A stretch of DNA of 64,000 nt. Source: the human T2T-CHM13v2.0 reference genome, Homo sapiens. The notes under the pieces were generated by a model, which was not told the DNA's origin, did not search any database, and saw nothing but the letters and a program-made list of their open reading frames with translations. The stretch lies in assembly GCF_009914755.1 (NCBI RefSeq), contig NC_060942.1, one strand, 5' to 3'. The position numbers and the translations under genes are program-made. Below are positions 44,810-46,699 of the stretch, piece by piece. Each line of letters starts with the position of its first letter. Position 1 is the first letter of the stretch.

Positions 44810-46690
44810 TGTGACATATATTAGTAATATTTTAATAATAATACGATTAATTTTACTCATAATTATTGTTTTCATGTGGATTCAAATTATTGTATGCGAT
44901 CACTTGTTTTCAGACTAAAAAGTTTCTTTAGACTTCCTTATACAATGTAACAGATTCTCTGAACTTTTGTCAATTATCTGTTAATTTTTTTCAATTTTGT
45001 CTCAATTATTGGAGGTCAGTATTTCATGATTTTTTTTAATAGTATTACTGGATATAATATTCTTGCTTGGCTGCTTTTTAATTTTATTTTTTCTGTCCAT
45101 ACTTTGAATATCTCACTACCTCTTATCTCTATTATTTTTGGTAAGAAAGCACATGCTATTCTTATCGGGGTTCCTTTGTCATTGGTGAGTCATGGCTGTT
45201 TTGTGCTTTCAAGATTTTGGCTTTATTAACTTTCAGTGTTTTTACTATAGTGTGCCATGGGTGAATTTCTTTGCTAGTGGAATTCTTAAGAGTTTCTTGT
45301 TGGTATATATCCATGTTATTTATTTTTTCCAATTGGGGATTTTTCAGTCTTTATTGCTTCAAGTATTTTTCAGCCAAATTATTGTCTCCTCTTCCTTTGA
45401 TACTCCCATTTACATACGTTGTTTTGCGTTGTGGGAGCACCACATTTCTCTGAGGCTCTGTCCATTTCTTTTTATTTATTTTTTCTCTCTGTTTTTGAGA
45501 TTGCATAATCTTGATTCTTCTCTTTTTAAGTTTATGGATTCTTATTTCTTACAGCCCACATCTACTCTTGAGGAACGCTAATAAATACTTTATTCAATTT
45601 TTGTAGATCTTAAGTCCAGAGTTTCCATTTGGTTCTTTTTTAAACAAACAATTGCTCTCTCTTTAATGATATTCACTATTTGGTGAGACATTGTCATTGT
45701 ACCTTCCTTTACTTTTTAAGATTCATTGTCATTACTTCTTTGAATATATTTTTAATGGCTGTCTTGAAATCTTTGTGTGTCTGCTAATTCTACCATGCAG
45801 TCCCTCTCACTGTCAGTTTCTGTCACCTGTTTTGCCTGTCTTCCCTTCCCAGGTACTTTTCACACTTCCTTATTTTTATGCATGTTCCTTGATTTTGTGT
45901 TAAAAACTGGACCATCTAGATAATATTTGGTAGCAACTCTTCACACCAATCTTCCACGCTCTCTCTCTCTCTCTCTCTTTTTCTTGTTTACTTAGTTACT
46001 AGGTTGGACTATTTAGTGAAAGTTATTTCCCTACAACAGGAAGAGTCTGATGTCACTCATAGCACAACTCCTCCTGGCTGTGTATTTCCTTGAACTCTCT
46101 ATTAACCTGTCTGGGCCGGGCGCGGTGGCTCACGCCTGTAATCCCAGCTCTCAGGGAGGCTAAGAGGCGGGAGGATAGCTTGAGCCCAGGAGTTCGAGAC
46201 CTGCCTGGGCAATATAGCGAGACCCCGTTCTCCAGAAAAAGGAAAAAAACAAAAAACAAAAAAAAAAAAAGACAAAAAAAAAATAAGCGTAACTTCCCTC
46301 TATTAACCTGTCTGCCTCTTTTGATAATACACCCAGCTCTTAAGCTCTGCTAATTGTCTGCTGACTGTGCTATTGCTTTCCACTAAGCTCTTGGAAATGA
46401 ATTGTTCTATAGTCGTACTCCACTAAATTCCAGTCACTGTGCAGGATTATCTGGGATGGCCAGGCTTTGAGGTTTTCTTAACCCTAAGAGGAATTTTCTT
46501 AGCTGTGACTTTATCTGCTTATTACCAATCAACTAGCTAATCTCTTGTTGATCTTCTTGCTTTCACGGAGCTGCCAGCCTTAATTTAATTTCTTACCAAC
46601 AAAGCCTACCTTGTTTCAAAAGTGAACCTATGTTTCAACCTTCCCACATCTATGTAAAAAATAAATCAGTAACTATGACAAGAGCTTCAG
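44810..46690 (-). mobile_element. Ancient L1M (L1MD/ME-type) ORF1/5' region
   Basis: actggatataatattcttgcttggc; gatactcccatttacatacg; cacatttctctgaggctctgtccattt; cagagtttccatttggttcttttt. Confidence 0.7.
46114..46300 (+). pseudogene. BCYRN1: Retrocopy (processed pseudogene) of BC200 RNA, 3'-truncated and tail-less; not the parent locus
   Basis: Monomeric Alu domain with BC200-specific cccagctctcagggaggctaagaggcgggaggatagcttgagccc...cctgcctgggcaatatagcgagaccccgttctccag; A-rich domain; unique domain taagcgtaacttccctc; 17-bp TSD ctctattaacctgtctg at 46097-46113 and 46298-46314. Confidence 0.95.
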
Positions 46691-46699
46691 AACTCTCTG

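What the first reader, a model, noticed from the sequence alone, without database searches (positions are those of the whole stretch)
46097..46314. Very young-looking retrocopy of the neuronal BC200 RNA: a host ncRNA acting as a mobile element
Seen: a monomeric Alu-like 5' domain, an A-rich middle and the unique sequence taagcgtaacttccctc, flanked by a perfect 17-bp direct repeat. All 9 CpGs are retained, although the surrounding L1M is ancient and decayed. Knowledge: this is the three-domain layout of BC200 (BCYRN1), an Alu-monomer-derived Pol III RNA. The Alu domain matches my recalled BC200 sequence with no difference; only the A-rich tract differs (GG-A7-C-A6-C-A13-GAC-A10). Inference: a recent L1-mediated germline insertion, possibly human-specific or polymorphic. 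Repeat annotation would probably mislabel it as FLAM/Alu.
Basis: partly seen in the sequence, partly recalled or inferred. Interest (0 to 1): 0.85.

Follow-up and report, generated by a model that had tools for sequence, protein, structure and literature searches.

The report
Young BC200 (BCYRN1) retrocopy, known kind
This is a real, barely decayed retrocopy of the brain RNA BC200 upstream of CDH19, but it is one of more than 200 such copies already described, and whether it is human-specific could not be tested here.

Summary
Window 46114-46297 is a copy of BC200 RNA flanked by a perfect 17-bp direct repeat (46097-46113 and 46298-46314). I compared it with the BCYRN1 gene in the same assembly (chr2, confirmed with published primers). 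It has no substitution in BC200 nt 1-129 or nt 146-172. All 9 CpGs are kept, and the A-rich tract is 12 nt longer.

The copy starts exactly at +1 and stops at nt 172-175 of 200, with no poly(A) tail. Its target site (AACT/CTCTAT) is unlike the L1 endonuclease consensus. A 3-nt CTC overlap suggests microhomology-primed reverse transcription.

Genome-wide, only this copy and one on chr16 match the gene's first 129 nt perfectly, so it belongs to the youngest tier. Zero changes gives only a loose age: median 2-5 My, 95% upper bound 8.5-21 My.

No primate or pangenome data were available, so "human-specific or polymorphic" is untested. BC200 as a source gene with over 200 pseudogenes, species-specific BC200-derived insertions in great apes, ORF2p-driven BC200 retrotransposition, and a RepeatMasker "BC200 scRNA" class are all in print. 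The finding is ordinary, and it probably makes no BC200-like RNA.

The parts
46097..46113 (+). 5' target-site duplication, CTCTATTAACCTGTCTG
   Evidence: Perfect 17-nt direct repeat with 46298-46314.
46114..46233 (+). BC200 nt 1-120, the monomeric Alu domain. It starts exactly at the gene's +1. The internal A box (nt 5-15 = 46118-46128) and B box (nt 78-88 = 46191-46201) are unchanged.
   Evidence: Identical to L004:1501-1620. Box positions come from PMC5537265 passages. Rfam SRP Alu-domain hit.
46234..46283 (+). A-rich central domain: AGAAAAAGG-A7-C-A6-C-A13-GAC-A10. It is 12 nt longer than the gene's A11-C-A4-GAC-A10.
46284..46297 (+). BC200-unique sequence nt 159-172 (TAAGCGTAACTTCC). It includes T170, the state of the present-day gene.
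   Evidence: A published primer for nt 158-180 (PMC11482611) maps to nt 158 of L004.
46298..46314 (+). 3' target-site duplication. Its first three bases, CTC (46298-46300), equal BC200 nt 173-175, so they are a junction microhomology of ambiguous origin.
46319..46322 (+). First TTTT downstream of the insert. It would terminate a hypothetical Pol III transcript of about 209 nt started at 46114.
   Evidence: Transcription itself is not shown.
44818..46096 (.). Left part of the old dispersed repeat that the insert interrupts.
46315..46698 (.). Right part of the same old repeat. It is colinear in paralogues L041, L042 and L044.

Best explanation
Window 46114-46297 is a processed retropseudogene of the Pol III transcript BC200 (gene BCYRN1, chr2). 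It inserted into an old dispersed repeat about 18 kb upstream of the CDH19 start.

Shown: the copy begins at the RNA's first base, shares no flank with the gene, is flanked by a 17-bp target-site duplication, and is identical to today's gene outside the A tract.

Inferred: the L1 ORF2 protein reverse-transcribed a BC200 RNA from a nick on the bottom strand. Priming was not on an A run. It used a 3-bp match between the primer end ...AATAGAG-3' and CUC at RNA nt 173-175. That explains why the copy lacks the last 25-28 nt and has no poly(A) tail. The nick site (top strand AACT/CTCTAT) is off the L1 endonuclease consensus.

Inferred: the event is recent on the primate scale, most likely within the great-ape or human lineage.

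Inferred: the copy is probably inert. It keeps the A and B boxes but lacks the -100 upstream region needed for efficient transcription, and it lacks the C-rich 3' domain.
For: Gene identified: the chr2 locus L004 holds the published -100 and -20 BC200 primers exactly, at 1401-1427 and 1481-1514. It also holds nt 158-180 at position 158.

Copy versus gene: 0 substitutions and 9 of 9 CpGs kept.

Census by first 129 nt: of the 40 places scored (out of 3184 candidates), only 3 are 100% identical. These are the gene, this copy and chr16:73.6 Mb.

Retroposition hallmarks: exact +1 start and a 17/17 target-site duplication.

Old-repeat paralogues are colinear across the insert.

The 3' end at nt 172 and the 3-nt overlap come.

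BC200 can be mobilised by ORF2p in cells (PMC11260458 passages). L1 priming tolerates short or imperfect primer-template matches (PMC3649969 abstract).

Deleting the whole upstream region drops BC200 transcription below 10% (PMC5537265 passages).
Against: The target site has no A in the first four duplicated bases. Only 2 of 35 events with a candidate duplication are like this: this copy and L016.

There is no poly(A) tail, which L1-driven trans-mobilisation normally needs. The cell assay used an engineered 44-nt tail.

The PLoS Genet abstract reports efficient priming with as few as 4 terminal matches. Here there are 3.

L1 involvement is therefore inferred, not shown.

The age rests on recalled mutation rates and a flat prior. 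Low germline methylation or gene conversion would allow an older insertion.

Silence of the copy is inferred from plasmid data for the gene, not measured at this locus.
Confidence: 0.78

Rival explanations
1. It is the same BC200 retrocopy, but made without L1 endonuclease. A BC200 cDNA, or the RNA, was captured at a pre-existing staggered break or nick and joined by microhomology.
For: The target site is off-consensus, there is no poly(A) tail, and the 3' junction has a 3-nt microhomology. The other perfect copy, on chr16 (L015), also sits at a non-A site (AGAT/CATGAG) with a 2-nt overlap.
Against: A clean 17-bp duplication with no target deletion is the usual signature of staggered L1 nicks (general knowledge, recalled). 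The insert is full length at the 5' end.
Confidence: 0.14
2. The copy is a live gene. Pol III transcribes it from the intact A and B boxes to the TTTT at 46319-46322, giving a roughly 209-nt BC200 variant without the C-rich domain.
For: [quoted passage not shown]
Against: The -100 upstream region is absent, because the flanks are unrelated. Removing it cuts expression below 10% on plasmids. No expression data were available here.
Confidence: 0.05
3. It arose by DNA-level duplication or gene conversion from BCYRN1, not through RNA.
For: Perfect identity with the gene.
Against: Homology starts exactly at +1 and ends inside the transcript. No gene flank is shared, and a target-site duplication is present.
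Confidence: 0.02
4. It is an ordinary free left Alu monomer (FLAM) or a truncated Alu, not derived from BC200.
For: The 5' domain is Alu-like.
Against: It is 129/129 identical to the BC200 gene, against 73-80% to the window's Alus. It also carries the GAC-A10-TAAGCGTAACTTCC segment unique to BC200. No FLAM consensus was available for a direct comparison.
Confidence: 0.01

Closest known systems
Human BC200 (BCYRN1) retropseudogenes (Kuryshev et al. 2001, seen only as cited; RepeatMasker class 'BC200 scRNA')
   Same: Alu domain, A-rich tract and part of the unique region of BC200. Exact +1 start, target-site duplication and dispersed location. In my sample, 34 of 36 events, this one included, are 3'-truncated.
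   Different: It is less decayed than nearly all others, with 0 changes in nt 1-129. It ends in the unique region (nt 172-175) rather than in the A tract (17 events) or at nt 163-168 (11 events). Its target site is off-consensus.
Lineage-specific monomeric Alu insertions in great apes, mainly from BC200 (Kojima 2011, seen only through the passage in PMC5753468)
   Same: Recent transposition of the monomeric BC200 transcript.
   Different: I could not see that paper or its lists, so I do not know whether this locus is among them.
Alu and other SINE mobilisation by L1 ORF2p (target-primed reverse transcription)
   Same: Pol III transcript with an SRP9/14-binding Alu fold, a 17-bp duplication, and insertion in trans.
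   Different: Canonical events prime on a 3' A run at TTTT/AA-like nicks. This one primed on CUC at a purine-rich nick and has no A tail.
Rodent BC1 RNA gene as master of ID elements (recalled; mentioned in PMC13034634 table)
   Same: A neuronal Pol III regulatory RNA that also seeds retrocopies.
   Different: BC1/ID reached very high copy numbers. BC200 has a few hundred copies.

Membership tests
BC200 (BCYRN1) retropseudogene | 5' domain matches the BC200 Alu domain rather than generic Alu | tested here: met
   129/129 identical to the chr2 gene. The window's Alus match at 73-80%.
BC200 (BCYRN1) retropseudogene | Central A-rich tract with the GAC landmark | tested here: met
   GG-A7-C-A6-C-A13-GAC-A10. 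It is 12 nt longer than the gene's tract.
BC200 (BCYRN1) retropseudogene | BC200-unique 3' sequence | tested here: met
   Nt 159-172 are present and identical. Nt 176-200, including the C run, are absent.
BC200 (BCYRN1) retropseudogene | RNA-mediated origin: starts at +1, shares no gene flank, has a target-site duplication | tested here: met
Canonical L1 endonuclease-dependent insertion | Nick at a TTTT/AA-like site (duplication starts with an A run, preceded by T) | tested here: not met
   Top strand AACT/CTCTAT. Shifting the boundary by the 3 ambiguous bases gives CTC/TATTAA, which is still off-consensus. The consensus itself comes from the PMC3649969 abstract.
Canonical L1 endonuclease-dependent insertion | 3' poly(A) tail next to the 3' duplication | tested here: not met
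   The insert ends ...TAACTTCC directly at the duplication.
Functional BCYRN1 gene copy | Upstream -100 promoter region and TATA-like element at -28 to -22 | tested here: not met
   The window upstream sequence is unrelated to L004:1401-1500. The requirement comes from PMC5537265.
Functional BCYRN1 gene copy | Complete 200-nt RNA with the C-rich 3' domain and native terminator | tested here: not met
   The copy stops at nt 172-175.
Human-specific or polymorphic insertion | Empty orthologous site in other apes, or in some human haplotypes | not testable with these tools
   Only this one assembly is held ('It has no relatives here').
Insertion inside an L1M element | Flanks belong to an L1M family | tested here: inconclusive
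   The flanks are an old dispersed repeat. No L1 protein domain was found in 17 of 39 open frames tested. No repeat library was available.

The most novel reading that the evidence does not exclude
The insertion arose after the human-chimpanzee split and may still segregate in humans. That would show BCYRN1 is still a live source gene in our lineage. It was made by a poly(A)-independent, microhomology-primed event at a site unlike the L1 endonuclease consensus. The only other perfect copy (chr16) shares the off-consensus site and the microhomology junction. This hints that the newest BC200 copies arise by an atypical route.
Probability: 0.4. Interest if true: 0.3.

Novelty: already known. Interest (0 to 1): 0.18.

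Why it matters
The practical weight is small.

First, the copy is identical to BC200 over nt 1-129 and 146-175. Probes, primers or short reads aimed at those parts cannot tell the gene from this locus or from the chr16 copy.

Second, if an empty site were found in other apes or in some people, the locus would be a clean, datable marker. It would also be one more example that a domesticated neuronal RNA gene still seeds copies.

Third, its junctions add a case to the small set of retrocopies primed outside an A run.

None of this changes what is known about BC200 or L1.

Tried and rejected
Rfam: no BC200-specific family hit. The best hit was Metazoa_SRP at 65.5 bits, below its threshold of 70. 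The rest were weak chance-level hits to mir-1285, mir-3135, gyrA and CrcZ.

I then listed stop-free frames (39) and sent 17 of them to Pfam. The only matches were unrelated, with E of 0.015 or weaker, and none was an L1 domain. So 'L1M' stays unverified.

Automatic 3' end calling by global alignment (column end_in_master) slid along A runs and gave unreliable ends. I read the ends from the junction print-out instead.

Papers not held: Martignetti & Brosius 1993, Kuryshev 2001 and Kojima 2011. I therefore could not check whether this locus is one of the cloned beta/gamma pseudogenes or is in published lists. A search for BCYRN1P1-3 and 'BC200 beta/gamma' found 0 papers. A search for joined spellings found only reference-list mentions of 'BC200 pseudogenes'.

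I considered the X-linked pair L002/L003 as parent of this copy, because they share the A7-C-A6-C start of the A tract. I rejected this. They end at nt 166, and they carry a 1-nt deletion and a CpG change that the window lacks.

Full report
WHAT IS THERE

The window reads ...AACT [CTCTATTAACCTGTCTG] GGCCGGGCGCGG ... TAAGCGTAACTTCC [CTCTATTAACCTGTCTG] CCTCTTTTG.... The bracketed 17-mers lie at 46097-46113 and 46298-46314 and are identical. They are the only non-A-rich direct repeat reported in 45800-46600. The bases just outside them differ, so the repeat is exactly 17 bp. Chance identity of two given 17-mers is 5.8e-11.

FINDING THE REFERENCE GENE WITHOUT MEMORY

A search of the window's own assembly with the 184-nt insert returned 40 scored places out of 3223 candidates. 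One of them is on contig 2 at 47.34 Mb (locus L004). L004 contains the published BC200 promoter primers exactly: the -100 primer at 1401-1427 and the -20 to +14 primer at 1481-1514 (PMC5537265 Table 3, seen). It also holds the published nt 158-180 primer at position 158 (PMC11482611 passage). The gene runs GGCCGGG...CCCCCCCCCCCTTTT over 200 nt. L004:1501-1700 is therefore the BCYRN1 gene.

COPY VERSUS GENE

The insert aligns to gene nt 1-172 with no substitution. The only difference is a net 12 extra bases in the A-rich tract: GG-A7-C-A6-C-A13-GAC-A10 against GG-A11-C-A4-GAC-A10. The next three bases, CTC, equal gene nt 173-175, but they are also the first bases of the duplication, so their origin is ambiguous. 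All nine CpGs of gene nt 1-175 are intact. Ordinary Alus elsewhere in the window match the 5' domain at 73-80% only. Rfam sees just the SRP Alu-domain fold, at 65.5 bits against a threshold of 70. I had no FLAM consensus for a direct comparison.

RNA-MEDIATED ORIGIN

Homology to the gene begins at the first transcribed base and ends inside the transcript. The gene's upstream and downstream DNA is not shared. The flanks are an old dispersed repeat. The left flank gave 404 candidates, of which 40 were scored; the 39 non-self hits are 66-79% identical. The right flank gave 10 hits. Three fetched paralogues (L041, L042, L044) align on both sides of the insert at 59-65% identity, in one orientation and order, so the BC200 copy interrupts that repeat. 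Flank CpG observed/expected is 0.17-0.24, against 0.65 in the insert's Alu domain. Whether the old repeat is an L1M I could not tell.

HOW YOUNG

I fetched the 39 other places and compared each with gene nt 1-129. One is the gene. Of the 38 copies, three pairs are later duplications that share flanks (L002/L003, L017/L018, L025/L028). That gives 35 independent events, or 36 with the window.
- Zero substitutions and no indel: the window and L015 (chr16:73.6 Mb).
- Zero substitutions with one indel: the X pair L017/L018.
- One substitution and no indel: L009, L010, L011, L021.
- The rest have up to 5 substitutions.

A second search with the 129-nt Alu domain alone scored 40 of 3184 candidates. 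It found exactly three perfect places: the gene, the window and chr16. The tool scores only the best candidates, so these counts are lower bounds.

Older copies that reach the unique region read AACTCCCCTT. The gene, the window (through T170) and the full-length X copy L008 read AACTTCCCTC. So the window copy postdates that change in the gene.

For absolute age I used recalled rates of 0.5-1.0e-9 per site per year, with CpG sites 6-10 times faster. I counted 156 compared insert sites plus both copies of the duplication. Zero changes then give a median of 2-5 My, a 95% upper bound of 8.5-21 My, and 0.60-0.90 probability of an age under 6.5 My under a flat prior. A post-Old-World-monkey origin is likely (0.97 or more in that model). 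Human specificity is open.

HOW IT WAS MADE

In my reading of the 36 junctions, the 3' ends fall as follows:
- 17 events end inside the A-rich tract, and 2 are unclear.
- 11 end at nt 163-168, right after TAAGCG, mostly with a duplication that starts TAA.
- 4 end at nt 169-182: the window, L016, L036 and L007.
- 2 are full length: L008 and L025/L028.

Most target sites start with A-rich words, as expected for L1 nicks. Only the window (CTCT) and L016 (CCTC) have no A in the first four duplicated bases, 2 of 35 events with a candidate duplication.

For the window, the bottom-strand primer would end ...AATAGAG-3'. This pairs with CUC at RNA nt 173-175, so cDNA synthesis would start opposite nt 172. 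That fits the missing last 25-28 nt and the absent A tail. L1 reverse transcription is known to tolerate imperfect primer ends, though efficient priming was reported with as few as 4 terminal matches (PMC3649969 abstract). The 17-bp duplication and the intact 5' end fit staggered L1 nicking. The odd site leaves room for capture at a pre-existing break. A 3'-trimmed RNA template is also possible, since processing intermediates of BC200 are described (PMC11482611 passages). The junction cannot separate these.

WHAT IT DOES

Probably nothing. The A and B boxes (nt 5-15 and 78-88) are intact, and a TTTT lies at 46319-46322. However, efficient BC200 transcription needs the upstream 100 bp, and removing all upstream sequence leaves less than 10% (PMC5537265 passages). 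The copy has unrelated upstream DNA and lacks the C-rich domain. No expression data were available.

WHAT IS KNOWN

[quoted passage not shown] - A consensus BC200 with an added 44-nt A tail retrotransposes with ORF2p in permissive HeLa cells (PMC11260458 passages).
- RepeatMasker-derived annotation has a 'BC200 scRNA' class (PMC8728242 passages).
- The hub table shows 46108-46290 masked.

I saw these papers only as passages or abstracts. The three primary papers were not held, and searches for named pseudogenes found nothing specific. As a recalled lead only: the pseudogenes cloned in 1993 were found with unique-region probes. This copy and the X copy L008 are the least diverged ones carrying that region, so one of them may be among those clones.

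VERDICT

This is a correct and careful observation of an ordinary object. It is a member of the known BC200 retropseudogene family, notable only for being in the least-decayed tier and for an atypical 3' junction.

Noticed in passing
L015 (G000:C16:73606609-73607054, minus strand): This is the only other BC200 retrocopy with a perfect nt 1-129. It ends at gene nt 147-149, sits inside an Alu with an 18-bp duplication CATGAGGTCAGGAGATCG, and also has an off-consensus site (AGAT/CATGAG) with a 2-nt overlap.
   Followed up: partly
L005, L006, L009, L014, L019, L024, L032 and others: There is a recurrent 3' end. Eleven of 36 independent BC200 retrocopy events stop at nt 163-168, just after TAAGCG. 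Seven of them have a duplication starting TAA. This fits primers ending ...TTA pairing with UAA at nt 165-167, or a processed RNA end near there.
   Followed up: partly
L002/L003 (G000:C23:71.38 and 71.21 Mb, inverted pair): Over the whole 184-nt insert these are the closest relatives of the window copy (96-97%), because they share the A7-C-A6-C start of the A tract. They end at nt 166 and carry their own changes, so they are not its parent. The shared form suggests the source gene once carried, or still varies for, an expanded (A6C)n tract.
   Followed up: partly
L007, L016, L025/L028, L036 versus window and L008: Older copies read AACTCCCCTT where today's gene reads AACTTCCCTC (nt 170 and 175). 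This is a record of change in the source gene. The window has the modern T170.
   Followed up: partly
L008 (G000:C23:138032512-138032707): A near full-length BC200 copy (nt 1-196, 99%, two CpG changes) followed by TTT and an A-rich tail, and then an Alu. It is the least diverged copy that keeps the C run.
   Followed up: no
L025 (chr13:17.92 Mb) and L028 (chr21:12.15 Mb); L017/L018 (chrX:70.16/70.19 Mb): In these BC200 copies the flanks are duplicated as well, so they were carried along by later segmental duplications (acrocentric arms, and an X inverted repeat).
   Followed up: no
window 44818-46698: An old dispersed repeat interrupted by the insert. Paralogues are 59-65% identical, and there are over 400 candidate copies for the left part. 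The family was not determined.
   Followed up: partly
window 45959-45979: A short (CT)n run, followed by a T run, about 120 bp upstream of the insert.
   Followed up: no
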